Shown piece by piece: positions 696-12,930 of a stretch of 12,930 bases of DNA. A program made the translations under genes and the position numbers. Positions within the stretch are counted from its first letter, which is position 1. The number at the start of each line of letters is the position of its first letter. This DNA is from a virus. Lineage: Duplodnaviria; Heunggongvirae; Uroviricota; Caudoviricetes. Location: the IMG/VR virus record IMGVR_UViG_3300020061_000005. One strand, written 5' to 3'. Below the pieces are notes generated by a model, which was not told the origin of the DNA, did not search any database, and saw only the letters and a list, made by a program, of their open reading frames with translations.

Positions 696-889
696 GATCG
701 GCCACGGGATAAGCCGTGAGTGCCCAGCGGAAGTGCGTCTGCTATGAGACACGGGCCGGTCGACCGCTAAACCGCGGCAGTGAGGGGATGGCGTTAGGTC
801 ACCCTGGGAGGTTTTCGATGGCTCCTGGGTTGACCGCTCCAACCGTCTGACCTGCACCCACCCGCCGAGCTGCCAGACAGCCGGCGGGG
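696..889 (+). ncRNA. Candidate structured non-coding RNA, family not recognised
   Basis: Hand-folded helices: 696-703/754-761, 704-707/714-717, 737-740/747-750, possible pseudoknot 726-730/764-768, a long interrupted hairpin ~774-855 and hairpin 861-872/878-888. No credible ORF spans the region. Strand is assumed from the flanking genes. Confidence 0.45.
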
Positions 890-6374: not shown

Positions 6375-6586
6375 TCGAGCCCGCTGCAGCCATCCATAAA
6401 TGGCGCACGCTTGCCGAAGAGCGCCGCCAGGACATGCTGGAGAAGATCGCCAACGCACTGCCAGAGCGCACCTACCTGGTCAATTGTGGCGCACTCAAAG
6501 AGCTGGATTTCCAGATCGCGCTGATGCACAACATACTCACCGGTAAAACCGAGAAAGGGGACGAGGATGGCGACGACAAAGATTGA
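6371..6586 (+). CDS. Small helical protein preceding GroES (71 aa)
   Basis: ATGA-coupled start at 6371 within track ORF 6326..6586; helical hairpin-like sequence with an acidic tail; its position directly before groES resembles related phages as I recall them. Confidence 0.7.
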   Translation: MIEPAAAIHKWRTLAEERRQDMLEKIANALPERTYLVNCGALKELDFQIALMHNILTGKTEKGDEDGDDKD

Positions 6587-7022
6587 TATCGATCAGCCGG
6601 CACGCCAGGCGGCGCAACAGAAGAACTTCGATCGAGTGCGCGAACAGCTGTATCCGAAGCTGCCGCTGCAGCCGGCCTTCTGGTCGGTGCTGCTCGAACC
6701 CCTGGAGCCAAAGGAAACCTCCGTTGGTGGCATTGTGCTGGCCAAGCCAACGCAGGATGCTCAGAAGATCCTCACCACCATTGGCCGCATCCTCGCGATC
6801 GGCTCGCTCGCCTTCACCGGCAAGACTGCTTCGGGGTTGAGCCTGTCGGATGAAAAGCTGAAGTTCGCAGTCGGGGATCACGTGCTGTATCAACGCTACA
6901 CCGGCCAGGAGTTGTACTTGTACAGTAAGGGCCAGGAGGAAGATCGGCGGCTGGTGATGATCACCGACTCCGAGATCTTGGGCTTGGTGAGCGATCCGAG
7001 CGCGTTCCGGATTTATGTATAG
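6567..7022 (+). CDS. groES: Phage co-chaperonin GroES-like protein (151 aa)
   Basis: LQPAFWSVLLEP, mobile loop ETSVGGIVL, GRILAIG, VGDHVLYQRYTG and ITDSEILG follow the Cpn10 pattern; GAGG RBS; N-terminal and internal extensions relative to the ~97-aa bacterial GroES. Confidence 0.9.
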   Translation: MATTKIDIDQPARQAAQQKNFDRVREQLYPKLPLQPAFWSVLLEPLEPKETSVGGIVLAKPTQDAQKILTTIGRILAIGSLAFTGKTASGLSLSDEKLKFAVGDHVLYQRYTGQELYLYSKGQEEDRRLVMITDSEILGLVSDPSAFRIYV

Positions 7023-9013: not shown

Positions 9014-9648
9014 AACCGATGAAAGCAGATGACGTTGTTGGCGCGGGCGCAACCCGCGAGCAAGCGAAGCCAGAACTCGCACGCCAGGCGCGACAGCGCC
9101 GCGGCAAACGTGCGGATGGCGATGTTCACAAGGTGAGCCACACGGTTCACACATCCCGCTTACAGGAAGCGGCCGAGCGCACAGAGGTGGTTCAGCCGGT
9201 GACTAAGAAGCGGTGGCAGCGAGCGACGGCATTGCCGGCGATGGTGGCTCCTGAAGGTTGGCGCCTGAAGTGGGTGCGAATCGATGGCCAGCATCGCGGT
9301 GATCAGTCGAACCTGGTTCGGCATATTCAGGAAGGATGGGAATTCGCGGCAGTCTCTGACTTTCCGCGAAAAGCACTCCCGACCCATCGCCTGACCAACC
9401 ACGGAGAAGTGATCGGGAACGTGGACACAGTGCTCCTGAAAATGGAGGTGGAGCTGGTCCAGCAACGCAACGACTTCTACAACAGCAGGCGGGACGTTGC
9501 GACGCGCGCGATCAACGAAGAGACGGGTCTGACCGAAGCCCTTCATCCAGCGATGCCGCTGGTCGAGGACATCAACCGGAGCCGGGTCAAGTTCCAGCGT
9601 ATGCGTCGCAAGCAGCGTGATGCGGTTGGAGTCGCTGACGACGATTAA
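9010..9648 (+). CDS. Conserved head-module protein between scaffold and capsid (212 aa), function unknown
   Basis: ATGA-coupled start; W..A.ALP...APEGWRLKWVR...D.SN...EGWEF...G.VIG...VLLKM..E....RNDFY pattern recalled from this phage group. Confidence 0.75.
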   Translation: MKPMKADDVVGAGATREQAKPELARQARQRRGKRADGDVHKVSHTVHTSRLQEAAERTEVVQPVTKKRWQRATALPAMVAPEGWRLKWVRIDGQHRGDQSNLVRHIQEGWEFAAVSDFPRKALPTHRLTNHGEVIGNVDTVLLKMEVELVQQRNDFYNSRRDVATRAINEETGLTEALHPAMPLVEDINRSRVKFQRMRRKQRDAVGVADDD

Positions 9649-9674
9649 CCGATCTTCTTGCGAGGTAGCCAATC

Positions 9675-10244
9675 ATGGCAAACGTAAATGCTCCCTCGGG
9701 CTTTACTGCCAACAAACACGCCACGGGTGGCGTGATTCGCACGGCTGAGTATCAGATCGTCGGTGGCCTGGCTTCGAACATCTATCGAGGCTCCCTGGTC
9801 ATCCCGGTCAACACGAACAAGCGCATCAACGTGGCAGCGGCCACCAACCGAGTGATCGGTGTGTTCGAGGGATGCGAGTACGTGGATACCAACGGAGATG
9901 TGCAGTTTCGTCCGCGCTGGGCCACCGCGACCGCCATTAAAACCGGCACCGTCGTGAAGGCTCATGTCTACGATGACCCGTTCGTCCTGTTCGCAGTCCA
10001 GGTTTCCACAGCCACCGGCCTGGTAGCCGCTGATGTGGGCGCCTTCGCCGATGTGGTGATCGGCTCTGGTGGTGCACTCACTGGCCAATCGGGCGACATG
10101 CTCGATCAGACCACGATCGGCACCGGCACCGTCCTGCGCATCGAAGAGCTGCAGCAGATCCAGGGCAACGACTACGGGCAATACGCCAAGGCACTGGTGC
10201 GACTCGCGCTCCATTACCTCGGCCCCGCCCTGACTGCGATTTAA
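9675..10244 (+). CDS. Putative capsid cement/decoration protein (189 aa)
   Basis: GAGGT RBS; MANVNAPSGF...NIYRGSLV...IGVFEGCEY...VYDDP..LFAVQ pattern; beta-rich; immediately upstream of the major capsid gene. Confidence 0.7.
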   Translation: MANVNAPSGFTANKHATGGVIRTAEYQIVGGLASNIYRGSLVIPVNTNKRINVAAATNRVIGVFEGCEYVDTNGDVQFRPRWATATAIKTGTVVKAHVYDDPFVLFAVQVSTATGLVAADVGAFADVVIGSGGALTGQSGDMLDQTTIGTGTVLRIEELQQIQGNDYGQYAKALVRLALHYLGPALTAI

Positions 10245-10256
10245 GGAGCGCGCGTC

Positions 10257-11165
10257 ATGACAATCTTTCGTAGTGACCAACGCAAACAGCTCCAACAGGG
10301 TCTGAATGCGATCTTCGGCCTCACCTATACGGAGTGGCCGGAACTGTGGCGGGACATTTTCACCGTCGAGAACTCGGAAAAAGCGTACGAGGAAGAGGTG
10401 ATGCAGTCCGGCTTGGGTGCCGCGTCTGTGAAGCCTGAAGGCGCTGGCGTCGAATACGACGATATGTACGAGACGTACGTCGCTCGCTACCAGCACGACA
10501 CCATTGCGAAGGCAGTGGCAATCACCGAGGAAGCGGTCGAGGACAACCTGTATGCATCGGTTGGCCAGCGCATTGCAAAGGCGCTTGCTCGCTCGATGAA
10601 GTTCACCAAGGAGCTGCGCGCGGCCAACGTGCTCAACTTCGGGTTCGATTCGAACTTCTCGGGTGGCGATGGTGTGCAGCTGTTCTCTACGGCTCACCCC
10701 CTGGGTGGTGGCGGCACGTTGCCCAACACGCTGGTAACCCCAGCGGATCTCTCGGAGTCCTCACTGGAAGAGGCGGCCATTCAGATCGCTGACTGGACGG
10801 ATGAACGCGGCATCCCGGTGCGGGCCATGATCAAGAAGATGATCATCCCCACGGCGCTGCAGTTCGTGGCTGCGCGGCTCCTGATGACGCCGTATCAGCC
10901 GGACACCGGGGACAACAACATCAACGCGCTGTTCAAACTCGGCACGATCGAGAACGGGTTCTCCGTGAATCGCTACCTGAGCGACCCGGACGCCTGGTTC
11001 TTGAAGACCGACGTCGACAACGGCTTGAAGCACTTCGTTCGCCGGCCGCTGAAGAAGGGGCTGGAGGGCGACTTCGAGACGGGTAATTTGCGGTACAAGG
11101 TCAGTGAGCGTTATTCGCAAGGCTGGTCAGATCCGCGTGGCGCCTGGGCTTCCCCTGGAGCCTGA
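10257..11165 (+). CDS. Major capsid protein (302 aa, HK97-fold expected)
   Basis: AAGGAG RBS. QLQQGLNAIFGLTY, SEKAYEEEV..SGLG.A.VKPEG..V.YD, RYQHDTIA...ITEEAVEDNLY, ALARSM..TKE..AANVLN and DFETGNLRYKVSERYS.GWSDPRG match a well-known podovirus-like MCP family. Confidence 0.93.
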   Translation: MTIFRSDQRKQLQQGLNAIFGLTYTEWPELWRDIFTVENSEKAYEEEVMQSGLGAASVKPEGAGVEYDDMYETYVARYQHDTIAKAVAITEEAVEDNLYASVGQRIAKALARSMKFTKELRAANVLNFGFDSNFSGGDGVQLFSTAHPLGGGGTLPNTLVTPADLSESSLEEAAIQIADWTDERGIPVRAMIKKMIIPTALQFVAARLLMTPYQPDTGDNNINALFKLGTIENGFSVNRYLSDPDAWFLKTDVDNGLKHFVRRPLKKGLEGDFETGNLRYKVSERYSQGWSDPRGAWASPGA

Positions 11166-11174
11166 TGAGACTAC

Positions 11175-11202
11175 GGCGCAGCTGTCACTCGGCTGCGCCT
11201 TT
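11175..11202 (+). terminator. Rho-independent terminator-like hairpin after the capsid gene
   Basis: GGCGCAGCTG-TCACT-CGGCTGCGCC (10 bp including one G-U) followed by TTT; the short U-tract suggests it is leaky. Confidence 0.6.
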
Positions 11203-11252
11203 CCCACCTGACATTGACCTGAACGCCCGATAAGGGCTGCGAGGAGCGGTTC

Positions 11253-11936
11253 ATGAGTCGTCAACTACTTTCCCAAGCGGCGCAGATCTTCTATGGCATG
11301 GTGCGCTATGGCCGTGCTTTCCAGGGCAAGCCTGGTGTGCAGATCACGCCTGAACTTCGTTGGCACAGCTACGGTGCCATCGTCCTGGCCGATGCGGACG
11401 GCATCTCCCTCTCGCAATCCGTCGGCGCTGCCGGCCTGGCGCTGATCAACGGTGCCTTCGCGGTTGGCGGTGTCGCCACCTTCGATGTCCCGCGCAATGT
11501 CGTGGGCGCCTGGACCACCAACTCGATCATCACGATCGTTGGCACGGACCAGTGGGGGTCGCTCATGTCGGAGGTCGGCGCCTCGGCTGCCACCTTCACT
11601 GGTAAGAAAGCCTTTAAGACCATCATCTCGATCACCAGCTCCGCCTCGATCACCGGTGCCACCTTCGGCTCGGGTGTGGTTATCGGTCTGCCCTACCGGG
11701 TCGATGAGAACGGCTACCTTCTTGGCAAGGTGGATGGCGCGACCGATGTTGGAACCTTCGTGGAAGCGATCACGGCTGCAGCCACCGGCACCACCGGTGA
11801 CACGCGCGGCACGATCACCTTCACCTCCGCGCCCGACACCACGAAGCTCTATGCGGTGCTGATCAAGATCGCTGATCCCTCGACGAAAGAAGGCGCGTAC
11901 GGCGTGAAGCAGTTCGGCAGCACGGACTCGGCTTAA
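11253..11936 (+). CDS. Virion structural protein (227 aa), Gly/Ala/Thr-rich beta protein
   Basis: GAGGAG RBS; ADADGIS.SQ...LING...A.FDVPRNV...TI.GTD.WG...E...GKKAFKTI.SIT pattern typical of capsid-adjacent structural proteins. Confidence 0.75.
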   Translation: MSRQLLSQAAQIFYGMVRYGRAFQGKPGVQITPELRWHSYGAIVLADADGISLSQSVGAAGLALINGAFAVGGVATFDVPRNVVGAWTTNSIITIVGTDQWGSLMSEVGASAATFTGKKAFKTIISITSSASITGATFGSGVVIGLPYRVDENGYLLGKVDGATDVGTFVEAITAAATGTTGDTRGTITFTSAPDTTKLYAVLIKIADPSTKEGAYGVKQFGSTDSA

Positions 11937-11945
11937 CGGTTCTGG

Positions 11946-12022
11946 TGCAGGGTAGAGCAGCCTGGCAGCTCGTTTGTCTCATACGCAAAAGGTCGCGGGT
12001 TCGAATCCCGCCCCTGCTACCA
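11946..12022 (+). tRNA. tRNA-Met(CAT), initiator (fMet)-like body with atypical anticodon stem; CCA encoded
   Basis: Full cloverleaf: acceptor TGCAGGG/CCCTGCT with U1xU72 mismatch, D-stem GAGC/GCTC, anticodon stem TTTGT/GCAAA, loop CTCATAC, T-arm GCGGG-TTCGAAT-CCCGC, A73-CCA. Confidence 0.95.
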
Positions 12023-12039
12023 CTTGGAGTGAATGAGTA

Positions 12040-12363
12040 ATGCGCCCACAAGTGATTTCTCAGACGGGGGCGGGGACCAGCAACCCGATCGTCATGGACT
12101 ACATCCGCAACCCCTTCACGGTGTCGCTCGCCGTGGATGTGACCGGCACGGTGTCCTTCTCGATCCAGCACTCTTACGACAATCCGGAATTGGGTGTCGC
12201 TAACATGGCCTGGCGCTCGAAGACCGCGCTGACCACGCAGATCGCCGCGCTCGAAGACAGTTTTACCGGCACTCCCATCCGCGCCATCCGCATTGTTCAG
12301 GCGTCAGGCTCGGGCACCACGAAGCTCACGGTTATCCAGTCCGGCCACGGACCTGGGGGATGA
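12040..12363 (+). CDS. Small beta-sandwich virion structural protein (107 aa)
   Basis: GGAG upstream; MRP.VIS.TG.GTS.PI.MDY..NPF.VSL.V.VTGT..FSIQHSYD...W...PIRAIRI pattern recalled from structural modules of related phages. Confidence 0.75.
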   Translation: MRPQVISQTGAGTSNPIVMDYIRNPFTVSLAVDVTGTVSFSIQHSYDNPELGVANMAWRSKTALTTQIAALEDSFTGTPIRAIRIVQASGSGTTKLTVIQSGHGPGG

Positions 12364-12366
12364 GTC

Positions 12367-12930
12367 ATGCCGGTTACAGTCCAACACATCCTCACGGCGA
12401 CCACGCCGGATAACACGACGGCAGAGATCCGGCCGAGTCACTGGAACTCGGGCCACCAGGTGTCGATCAGCCTCGCCGCAACTGAGGTAGTGAAGTTCAT
12501 TTCTGCCGGTGGCTCCAGCCAGAGCACGGGCACGATTCAGTTCAGCAATATGAACGGGGTGTCCTTCGGCCTGAATAACGGCACGCTGACGGCCTCGCAC
12601 AACGCGCTCACCGCACAGTCGGTGCAAACGCAGGGCATCCAGAGCATCAGCGCTGGCGGCAACCAGATCACCGGCGGCCAGGTGGTCTTCAGCAACTCCA
12701 ACGGCCTGGCCTTTGGGGTGAACGGCTCCACGATTACCGGCAGCTACACCGTCCCGACGCAGACGGCGCAGAGCATGGGGATCTACGGCTCCAGCCAGAC
12801 CACGGGTGCGTCTTCGAGTTCTACCGTGGACGCGCGCAGCCTGACGCTGGTCGGTGCTGGCGGTGTCTCTGTCGGGCTTACCAATGGGTCGGTGGTCATC
12901 TCCGGTGCCACCGGCGGTGGCGGTCCGAGC
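12367..12930 (+). CDS. Repeat-rich fibre-like structural protein, N-terminal 188 codons (runs off the window; absent from the ORF track)
   Basis: My translation from ATG 12367 is open to the window end: MPVTVQHILTATTPDNTTAEIRPSHWNSGH..., then Ser/Gly/Thr-rich repeats (ISAGG...FSN.NG..FG.N..T.T.S). Confidence 0.8.
   Translation, partial: MPVTVQHILTATTPDNTTAEIRPSHWNSGHQVSISLAATEVVKFISAGGSSQSTGTIQFSNMNGVSFGLNNGTLTASHNALTAQSVQTQGIQSISAGGNQITGGQVVFSNSNGLAFGVNGSTITGSYTVPTQTAQSMGIYGSSQTTGASSSSTVDARSLTLVGAGGVSVGLTNGSVVISGATGGGGPS

What the first reader, a model, noticed from the sequence alone, without database searches (positions are those of the whole stretch)
11946..12022. Initiator-bodied tRNA(CAT) that has lost two of the three anticodon-stem G-C pairs
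Seen: U1xU72 mismatch, G2-C71, C3-G70, A11-U24, A73, and a D-arm almost identical to E. coli tRNA-fMet (GAGCAGCCTGG.AGCTCG). The anticodon arm is TTTGT-CTCATAC-GCAAA, giving U29-A41, G30-C40, U31.G39 and C38, instead of GGG/CCC and A38. Established: the 1x72 mismatch, 2-71, 3-70 and 11-24 pairs are formylation determinants; the three consecutive G-C pairs direct P-site initiation, with the middle pair the most important; enteric VapC toxins cut tRNA-fMet at the 3' anticodon loop/stem junction; and phage tRNAs have been proposed to evade host anticodon nucleases through substitutions. It lacks the C4-G69/C5-G68 pairs associated with TilS-modified tRNA-Ile2. Inference: a nuclease-resistant replacement initiator that keeps only the essential central G-C, or a formylatable decoy for fMet-tRNA-targeting toxins or defence systems.
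Basis: partly seen in the sequence, partly recalled or inferred. Interest (0 to 1): 0.72.

Follow-up and report, generated by a model that had tools for sequence, protein, structure and literature searches.

The report
Phage start tRNA with stripped-down stem
A soil phage carries its own copy of the tRNA that starts protein synthesis, keeping only the one anticodon-stem base pair known to be essential; this is an extreme example of a pattern that turns out to be common in phage-borne start tRNAs, and why phages carry them is untested.

Summary
Window 11946-12022 (+) is a well-formed tRNA(CAU), the only true tRNA of a complete 76.8-kb phage from soil. It lies between two genes of the capsid operon. 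Its body is initiator-type: U1xU72, G2-C71, C3-G70, A11-U24, A73 and an encoded CCA. It is 78% identical to E. coli tRNA-fMet, 62% to elongator Met and 58% to Ile2. Its anticodon arm is U29-A41 / G30-C40 / U31.G39 with C38.

It is not a one-off kind. Among about 190 distinct initiator-bodied tRNA(CAU) genes sampled from viral contigs:
- about a quarter have all three G-C pairs;
- G30-C40 is kept in 98%;
- 29:41 and 31:39 vary with compensatory changes;
- 1:72 is unpaired in about 79%;
- 13% of the mismatch-type genes keep only the middle pair.

Alphaproteobacterial chromosomes natively have A29-U41. The nearest relatives (87% identical, also on phage contigs) are ua/GC/GC. So the change specific to this lineage is 31:39 plus A38 to C38. 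These are the two nucleotides flanking the published VapC cut site.

Most likely it is a working phage-supplied initiator tRNA. Nuclease escape is plausible but untested. No second copy of this exact arm was found. This scan has noted the same class on other DNA.

The parts
11946..12022 (+). tRNA(CAU) gene, 77 nt, initiator-type body, CCA encoded
   Evidence: ARAGORN; Rfam RF00005 59.5 bits; cloverleaf is the MFE fold
11946..11952 (+). acceptor stem 5' strand: U1 (opposite U72), G2, C3, A4, G5, G6, G7
   Evidence: pairs with 12012-12018
11955..11971 (+). D arm with A11-U24; one D-loop base differs from E. coli tRNA-fMet
11973..11989 (+). anticodon arm TTTGT-CTCATAC-GCAAA: U29-A41, G30-C40, U31.G39, C38; anticodon CAT at 11980-11982
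   Evidence: class comparison
11995..12011 (+). T arm GCGGG-TTCGAAT-CCCGC, identical to that of the Erythrobacter phage R6L tRNA and of phage contigs L552/L557
12012..12022 (+). acceptor 3' strand (C66-U72), discriminator A73, CCA
10257..11165 (+). major capsid protein gene upstream in the same operon
   Evidence: Pfam PF25209 and PHROG 371
11253..11936 (+). orfA (227 aa, no family); its stop codon ends 9 nt before the tRNA; homologues follow the capsid gene in related phages, without a tRNA
12040..12363 (+). orfB (107 aa); starts 17 nt after the tRNA 3' end, with GGAG 10 nt upstream of its ATG

Best explanation
This is a working, phage-supplied initiator-type methionine tRNA. It belongs to a large family of initiator-bodied tRNA(CAU) genes that occur on unrelated phage contigs.

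Inferred steps:
- It is transcribed as part of the late capsid operon, since it has no promoter or terminator of its own.
- It is cut out by host RNase P and 3'-end processing.
- It is charged by host MetRS (CAU anticodon, A73).
- It is formylated by host Fmt (unpaired 1:72, G2-C71, C3-G70, A11-U24).
- It is placed in the ribosomal P site through the one anticodon-stem pair that matters most, G30-C40.

Its likely use is to add to, or insure, the initiator-tRNA pool while the phage makes large amounts of structural protein. The flanking stem pairs are remodelled because a phage-borne extra copy is under weaker constraint there. Whether the 31:39 and 38 changes were also selected to escape an initiator-tRNA nuclease is open.

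Shown: the gene, its fold, its identity elements and the family-wide conservation pattern. Inferred: expression, charging, formylation and use in initiation.
For: - Real tRNA.
- Initiator body: in E. coli genomes blastn finds a median of four places, the number of tRNA-fMet genes per E. coli genome reported in PMC6265465. Identity is 77.9% to tRNA-fMet, 61.5% to elongator Met and 57.7% to Ile2.
- All published Fmt determinants are present (PMC7949028).
- Middle pair: G30-C40 alone, or even G30, sustains E. coli, including a cg/GC/cg mutant with pyrimidine:purine flanks (PMC5389676).
- Family-level selection: in 150 aligned sequences G30-C40 is G-C in 148, as invariant as the universal G53-C61 pair (149). 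Pairs 27:43, 28:42 and 29:41 change on both sides in 73, 60 and 82 sequences. 95% of cells are paired, and no shuffle out of 500 reaches the observed covariation.
- The E. coli elongator Met has C30-G40, so this conservation is specific to initiators.
- Against its 87%-identical relatives, two stem pairs differ on both sides and still pair: C27-G43 to U-A, and G31-C39 to U.G. That argues against decay.
- The phage has no Fmt, deformylase or RtcB of its own, so it must rely on host enzymes.
Against: - No expression, charging or formylation data exist. No RNA sequencing run holds the locus.
- The exact remodelled arm was found nowhere else, so its conservation cannot be tested.
- Eighty phage loci with a related capsid gene lack a tRNA at this place, so it is dispensable for the phage type.
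- U-A and U.G flanks break the purine:pyrimidine pattern of all natural bacterial variants described (PMC5389676). The closest tested mutant, cg/GC/cg, grew poorly.
- C32 opposite C38 is unusual for an initiator.
- The host is unknown.
Confidence: 0.6

Rival explanations
1. Nuclease-resistant replacement initiator. The anticodon arm was remodelled under selection so that host toxins or defence nucleases that cut tRNA-fMet no longer recognise it. An example is a VapC-type PIN nuclease. Phage translation could then continue after the host initiator is destroyed.
For: - Enteric VapC cuts tRNA-fMet between A38 and C39 (PMC4105405, citing Winther and Gerdes 2011). Here both nucleotides are replaced, by C38 and G39.
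- VapC toxins that target tRNA-fMet are reported in several phyla, including an alphaproteobacterium (PMC12321070).
- Phage tRNAs with anticodon-loop changes have been proposed to escape anticodon nucleases (PMC10264068).
- U31.G39 recurs in at least 66 distinct viral initiator-bodied tRNAs, 8 of them also with C38. One (L385) also has U1xU72.
- All 150 listed alphaproteobacterial chromosomal copies keep G31.
Against: - No nuclease, host or cleavage data exist.
- The recognition rules of VapC are unknown (PMC10264068).
- 31:39 is still G-C in 82% of viral copies and position 38 is still A in most (CTCATAA is by far the commonest loop), so most phage copies keep the cut site.
- The variation fits relaxed constraint equally well.
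- C38 is not clearly linked to G39: 8 of 66 against about 7% overall.
Confidence: 0.22
2. Dual-function or elongator methionine tRNA. An initiator-derived body has drifted towards use at internal AUG codons, as engineered tRNA-fMet mutants can.
For: - tRNA-fMet acceptor-stem mutants act as both initiators and elongators and can sustain E. coli alone (PMC6265465).
- About a fifth of viral family members have a Watson-Crick 1:72 pair.
- The flanking G-C pairs that discriminate initiators are gone here.
Against: - 1:72 is U opposite U, not a Watson-Crick pair.
- G2-C71, C3-G70 and A11-U24 favour formylation, which blocks EF-Tu binding.
- G30-C40 is kept, whereas the E. coli elongator has C30-G40.
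Confidence: 0.1
3. Non-functional or decaying tRNA copy. At most it serves as an RNase P cleavage point that separates the capsid-operon mRNA into two parts.
For: - It is a singleton: no second copy of this arm was found.
- Related phage loci lack a tRNA at this site.
- The anticodon stem is weak (three A-U, one G-C, one G.U).
- The fold z-score against shuffles is only -1.19.
- It is wedged between two genes, with 9-nt and 17-nt spacers.
Against: - It scores 59.5 bits against the tRNA model, and all four stems are intact.
- The nucleotides that are invariant across the 150-sequence viral alignment (T8, A14, T33 and T-loop positions) are unchanged here.
- CCA is encoded.
- Changes relative to its nearest relatives are compensatory.
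Confidence: 0.06
4. Decoy that soaks up initiator-tRNA-targeting toxins, or a lysidine-modified tRNA-Ile2 that reads AUA.
For: - Decoy: it resembles the target yet differs at the cut site.
- Ile2: the anticodon is CAU.
Against: - Decoy: nothing distinguishes it from a working tRNA, and a decoy would not need G30-C40 kept across the family.
- Ile2: only 57.7% identity to E. coli Ile2. There is no C4-G69/C5-G68, it has A11-U24, and 1:72 is unpaired.
- AUA is rare in this phage: 53 codons, 2.5 per 1000.
Confidence: 0.03

Closest known systems
Bacterial initiator tRNA (tRNA-fMet; E. coli metZWV/metY)
   Same: CAU anticodon, non-Watson-Crick 1:72, G2-C71, C3-G70, A11-U24, A73, a D arm identical but for one loop base, and G30-C40. 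Overall identity 77.9%.
   Different: U1xU72 in place of C1xA72. A4-U69. U29-A41 and U31.G39 in place of G-C. C38 in place of A38. A9 in place of G9.
Natural 3GC variants of bacterial initiators: alphaproteobacterial au/GC/GC; mycoplasmal GC/GC/gu and au/GC/gu (PMC5389676)
   Same: Only the middle pair, or the middle pair plus one other, is G-C. The middle pair is retained. My sample of alphaproteobacterial chromosomes confirms A29 with G30 and G31.
   Different: Those variants keep purine:pyrimidine orientation at all three pairs. Here the two flanking pairs are pyrimidine:purine (U-A and U.G). The nearest experimental analogue is the cg/GC/cg mutant.
Phage-borne initiator-type tRNA(CAU) genes: Erythrobacter phages R6L and ZS04, Xanthomonas phage Elanor, Sphingomonas phage PAU, Pseudomonas phage PaMx74, and tRNA-fMet of phiLM21-like Sinorhizobium prophages (PMC12429752)
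   Same: Same body and same kind of deviation: Elanor and PAU have U1xU72; PAU has U31.G39; PaMx74 has C38; R6L shares the T arm and the 3' acceptor strand. The gene is often the only tRNA found on the fetched stretch and lies near head or packaging genes.
   Different: Among the isolate-phage tRNAs tabulated, none combines U-A/G-C/U.G with C38. Nine viral-contig sequences share the U-A/G-C/U.G triple. The closest sequences overall (L552 and L557, 87% identical) are ua/GC/GC with A38.
Phage tRNAs proposed or shown to evade anticodon nucleases (PMC10264068; T5 tRNA-Lys against PARIS, PMC11464382; phage tRNAs against retron effectors, PMC11555353)
   Same: A phage copy of a host tRNA with substitutions in the anticodon arm, at or next to a known cleavage site.
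   Different: I found no published case that concerns an initiator tRNA. PMC10264068 reports that enteric phages generally avoid encoding tRNA-fMet. No nuclease is known for this unidentified host.

Membership tests
tRNA (Rfam RF00005) | Covariance-model score above the gathering threshold, with a cloverleaf fold | tested here: met
   59.5 bits against 29; ARAGORN; the MFE fold is the cloverleaf
Bacterial initiator tRNA (tRNA-fMet) | CAU anticodon and A73 (MetRS identity) | tested here: met
Bacterial initiator tRNA (tRNA-fMet) | No Watson-Crick pair at 1:72, plus G2-C71, C3-G70 and A11-U24 (Fmt determinants, PMC7949028) | tested here: met
   U1 opposite U72; the other three pairs are present
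Bacterial initiator tRNA (tRNA-fMet) | Three consecutive G-C pairs at 29:41, 30:40 and 31:39 | tested here: not met
   Only G30-C40; 29:41 is U-A and 31:39 is U.G. Natural exceptions exist and the middle pair suffices in E. coli (PMC5389676). So it is filed as 'works like an initiator', not as a canonical tRNA-fMet.
Bacterial initiator tRNA (tRNA-fMet) | Aminoacylation with Met, formylation, and IF2-dependent P-site binding | not testable with these tools
   Needs biochemistry or genetics
Virus-borne initiator-bodied tRNA(CAU) family (defined here from IMG/VR samples) | Initiator D arm with A11-U24, G2-C71/C3-G70, A73, mostly unpaired 1:72, invariant G30-C40 with variable 29:41 and 31:39, located on phage DNA | tested here: met
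   The window sequence aligns without exception to the family and shares all of its near-invariant positions.
Elongator tRNA-Met | Watson-Crick 1:72 and pyrimidine11:purine24; the E. coli type has C30-G40 | tested here: not met
   U opposite U at 1:72, A11-U24, G30-C40; 61.5% identity to the E. coli elongator
tRNA-Ile2 (lysidine, TilS substrate) | C4-G69 and C5-G68 (E. coli TilS determinants), an elongator-type body, and demand for AUA decoding | tested here: not met
   A4-U69 and G5-C68; 57.7% identity; AUA at 2.5 per 1000 codons in the phage. TilS rules differ between bacteria, so this is not absolute.
Anticodon-nuclease-resistant phage tRNA | A host nuclease that cuts the host isoacceptor, and resistance of the phage copy | not testable with these tools
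   Host unknown. The only data are positional: C38 and G39 replace the A38/C39 VapC site (PMC4105405).

The most novel reading that the evidence does not exclude
Phage initiator tRNAs as a class, and this one in its most extreme form, are counter-defence cargo. Their anticodon arms are reshaped down to the single pair the ribosome needs, so that host nucleases or toxins that shut off translation by destroying tRNA-fMet cannot recognise them. In this copy both nucleotides of the known VapC scissile bond are replaced. As far as my literature searches show, that would be the first anti-defence initiator tRNA. It would also be a natural map of the minimal initiator.
Probability: 0.2. Interest if true: 0.75.

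Novelty: new variant of a known kind. Interest (0 to 1): 0.45.

Why it matters
Two things make it worth a specialist's glance.

First, the family-wide pattern in phages is a natural replicate of the E. coli mutagenesis result that only the middle G-C pair is essential for initiation. The pattern is G30-C40 kept in about 98%, flanking pairs free to covary, and many different 1:72 mismatches. This tRNA is near the minimal end of that series, and its pyrimidine:purine flanks are not described in bacteria.

Second, it gives a concrete, cheap test of whether phages carry initiator tRNAs to survive host attacks on tRNA-fMet: cleavage and complementation assays on a 77-nt RNA.

Against that, phage tRNA(CAU) genes of initiator type are already annotated in isolates. 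The same class has been noted repeatedly by this scan. This particular sequence is a singleton from an uncultured phage with an unknown host.

Tried and rejected
- **Same place in related phages.** 80 loci with a related capsid gene contain no tRNA. Where orfA homologues exist, they are not followed by one.
- **Second copy of the remodelled arm.** The body-specific patterns, with the stem left free, returned only other stem types from viral contigs, genome contigs and metagenome contigs. Near-identical records may be hidden by the tools.
- **Expression.** The look-up of sequencing runs lists three soil DNA runs from two studies, possibly the source samples. No RNA holder is listed.
- **Own promoter or terminator.** None within 9500-12930 on the + strand.
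- **Phage-encoded partners.** No Fmt (PF00551), peptide deformylase (PF01327) or RtcB (PF01139).
- **attP remnant.** Rejected. There is no tyrosine integrase (serine integrases were not searched), the genome has direct terminal repeats, the tRNA is full length, and it sits inside the capsid operon.
- **Ile2.** Rejected on body features and on the rarity of AUA.
- **Host identification.** Capsid relatives among isolates infect Pelagibacter, Roseobacter, Caulobacter, cyanobacteria and Alcaligenes. This is too mixed to name a host, and relatives cannot be drawn for a virus record.
- **Literature.** The Winther and Gerdes 2011 and Walling and Butler 2018 papers are not held, so the cleavage site is cited second-hand. 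tRNAscan-SE isotype models were not available.

Full report
**What is there.** ARAGORN finds one tRNA in the window, tRNA-Met(cat) at 11946-12022 on the + strand. Rfam's tRNA model matches 11946-12019 at 59.5 bits (gathering score 29, E = 4.8e-11) and marks only position 1:72 as a non-standard pair.
- U1 opposite U72, G2-C71, C3-G70, A4-U69, G5-C68, A11-U24, A73, and an encoded CCA;
- the anticodon arm TTTGT-CTCATAC-GCAAA, that is U29-A41, G30-C40, U31.G39 and C38.

The cloverleaf is the minimum-free-energy fold.

**Where it sits.** The window is part of a complete 76,831-bp virus record with direct terminal repeats. This is its only tRNA above threshold. The surrounding genes are a portal, a GroES-like protein and a major capsid protein. 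The tRNA lies 9 nt after the stop of orfA (11253-11936) and 17 nt before orfB (12040-12363). No promoter-like or terminator-like site lies nearby on its strand, so it is presumably made from the late operon transcript and cut out. Runs that hold the DNA are soil metagenomes. Capsid relatives among isolated phages infect Pelagibacter, Roseobacter, Caulobacter, cyanobacteria and Alcaligenes, so the host cannot be named. Eighty viral contigs with a related capsid gene have no tRNA near it. The gene is therefore a lineage-specific acquisition.

**Which kind of CAU tRNA.**
- Against 5,426 E. coli genomes the sequence matches a median of four places per genome. Four is the number of tRNA-fMet genes per E. 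coli genome reported in PMC6265465.
- I verified reference sequences for the E. coli elongator tRNA-Met and the CAU-anticodon tRNA-Ile as 100% matches to annotated RefSeq genes.
- Global identity is 77.9% to tRNA-fMet, 61.5% to the elongator and 57.7% to Ile2.
- The Fmt determinants summarised in PMC7949028 are all present: unpaired 1:72, G2-C71, C3-G70 and A11-U24.
- The Ile2 acceptor pairs C4-G69/C5-G68 are absent. AUA is rare in this phage, at 53 codons or 2.5 per 1000 in a crude gene set.
- There is no tyrosine integrase, so an attP remnant is not a sensible reading.
- The phage encodes no Fmt, deformylase or RtcB.

**It is one of many.**
- A blastn search of isolate phages returned 76 records. 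I tabulated the initiator-like ones. These include tRNAs of Erythrobacter phages R6L and ZS04, Xanthomonas phage Elanor (also U1xU72), Sphingomonas phage PAU (U1xU72 and U31.G39), Pseudomonas phage PaMx74 (C38), Gordonia phage Phendrix, and rhizobial phages. G30-C40 is present in every one, while 29:41 and 31:39 differ.
- I then sampled IMG/VR with two patterns that fix only the initiator D arm and the CAU loop.
- Of 186 evaluable distinct sequences, 1:72 is unpaired in 146 and G30-C40 is present in 183. 29:41 is G-C in only 61 (A-U 85, U-A 38). 31:39 is G-C in 153. All three pairs are G-C in about a quarter (20 of 99 and 31 of 96).
- Among the 146 mismatch-type sequences, 19 keep only the middle pair, as the window does.
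- A tool cross-check on 150 aligned sequences gives the same picture. G30-C40 is G-C in 148 of 150, on a par with the universal G53-C61 pair at 149. Pairs 27:43, 28:42 and 29:41 change on both sides in 73, 60 and 82 sequences. 95% of cells are paired, and no shuffle out of 500 reaches the observed covariation.
- A further scan for U31 with G39 returned at least 66 distinct initiator-bodied sequences. Nine have the window's U-A/G-C/U.G triple and eight have C38. One of them (L385) also has U1xU72.

**The right baseline.** In 251 alphaproteobacterial genomes, the 5' strand of the initiator anticodon stem reads TCAGG in nearly all of the 150 matches listed. That means A29, G30 and G31. Only one listed match has G29. 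One of those genomes, G044, is unpublished; the claim does not depend on it. This agrees with PMC5389676, which states that the first pair is A-U in all alphaproteobacteria and that rhizobial ribosomes use that variant efficiently. The nearest relatives of the window's tRNA are 87% identical, with the same T arm and 3' acceptor strand. They are ua/GC/GC with A38, and they lie on phage contigs next to a large terminase, or near RecT-like and replication-initiation genes. Against them, the window differs in the anticodon arm by:
- C27-G43 to U-A;
- G31-C39 to U.G;
- A38 to C38.

Both stem changes are double substitutions that preserve pairing. 'Lost two of three' is therefore true against E. coli. 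The step specific to this lineage is the third pair and position 38.

**How it most likely works.** PMC5389676 shows that the middle pair, or G30 alone in some contexts, is necessary and sufficient for tRNA-fMet to pass from the 30S complex to an elongation-competent 70S and to sustain E. coli. The flanking pairs add fitness in the cold and in minimal medium. A cg/GC/cg mutant, which like the window has pyrimidine:purine flanks, still supported growth. The viral family conserves exactly that pair and the formylation determinants, and lets the rest covary. That pattern is what selection for initiator function predicts. Selection for an elongator or a decoy would not predict it; the E. coli elongator has C30-G40. 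I therefore read the gene as a working phage-supplied initiator tRNA (confidence about 0.6). Charging, formylation and P-site use are inferred, not shown.

**Why the remodelling.** Two readings remain open.
- *Relaxed constraint.* A phage copy is an extra, so the flanking pairs drift. 31:39 is still G-C in 82% of viral copies, and CTCATAA is by far the commonest loop, so position 38 is A in most. Most copies therefore keep the VapC site.
- *Nuclease escape.* VapC toxins of several bacteria, including an alphaproteobacterium, stop translation by cutting tRNA-fMet (PMC12321070). The enteric enzymes cut between A38 and C39 (PMC4105405). Phage tRNAs with anticodon-loop changes have been proposed to escape such nucleases, but that study found enteric phages mostly avoid carrying tRNA-fMet (PMC10264068). 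Here both nucleotides of that bond are replaced. This is suggestive only: the host, its toxins and the enzymes' recognition rules are unknown.

I put nuclease escape at about 0.2, a dual-function or elongator role at 0.1 (PMC6265465 shows acceptor-stem mutants can do both), a decaying copy at 0.06, and a decoy or Ile2 at 0.03.

**Novelty.** Phage tRNA-fMet genes are annotated in isolates and prophages (for example PMC12429752), and 3GC variants are known in bacteria. I found no paper describing the family-wide pattern in phages or the ua/GC/ug arm with C38. This is within the limits of the held library. This scan has already noted the same class on other DNA. One earlier case is a stripped-down anticodon stem in a relative of Erythrobacter phages. 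Another is a 'flipped pair' variant said to be common in phages. I class it as a new variant of a known kind, of moderate interest.

**Caveats.**
- It may include some host tRNAs at prophage edges, so percentages are approximate.
- Position calls rest on ARAGORN coordinates and a T-loop motif, cross-checked by the alignment.
- The exact sequence is a singleton, so its own conservation could not be tested.

Noticed in passing
window 6567-7022 (+): A GroES/Cpn10-like co-chaperonin gene (Pfam PF00166, E = 6e-9; PHROG 3188) sits inside the head module, between the portal and capsid genes.
   Followed up: no
G000:C1 51345-51405, 53616-53749, 53897-53957, 60188-60257 (outside the window): Four sub-threshold tRNA-model matches (23-28 bits). 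A phage with both Ro60/Y RNAs and a variant initiator tRNA invests heavily in RNA biology.
   Followed up: partly
L129 6685-6762 (Actinoplanes subtropicus contig): This bacterial genome has two canonical initiator genes (CTGGG stem) plus a third initiator-bodied tRNA(CAU). The third has U31.G39 and C38 (CCGGT-CTCATAC-GCCGG), the same 31/38/39 combination as the window. It may be prophage-borne.
   Followed up: no
L555 7118-7192 and 7206-7281 (440-kb metagenome contig Ga0180437_10000009): Within a dense array of 18 predicted tRNA genes on a very large contig, ARAGORN reports two tRNAs with four-base anticodons (cttt and cata). These may be frameshift-suppressor-like tRNAs or artefacts.
   Followed up: no
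L552 3578-3654 and L001 4000-4076: Closely related initiator-type tRNAs lie directly beside the large terminase gene in unrelated phages (upstream of it in L552, downstream in Erythrobacter phage R6L). In the window the tRNA lies after the capsid gene. The tRNA appears to move between phages as a small cassette near head and packaging genes.
   Followed up: partly
search of 251 alphaproteobacterial genomes: A few chromosomes carry extra initiator-like copies with other stems, for example TCTGG and CCGCG in a Bradyrhizobium (G001). This suggests that prophage-derived initiator tRNAs are common in bacterial genomes too.
   Followed up: no
window 696-889: An earlier first-reader note flags this roughly 200-nt coding-free stretch upstream of the head genes as a possible structured RNA. 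Rfam at gathering threshold finds nothing there.
   Followed up: no
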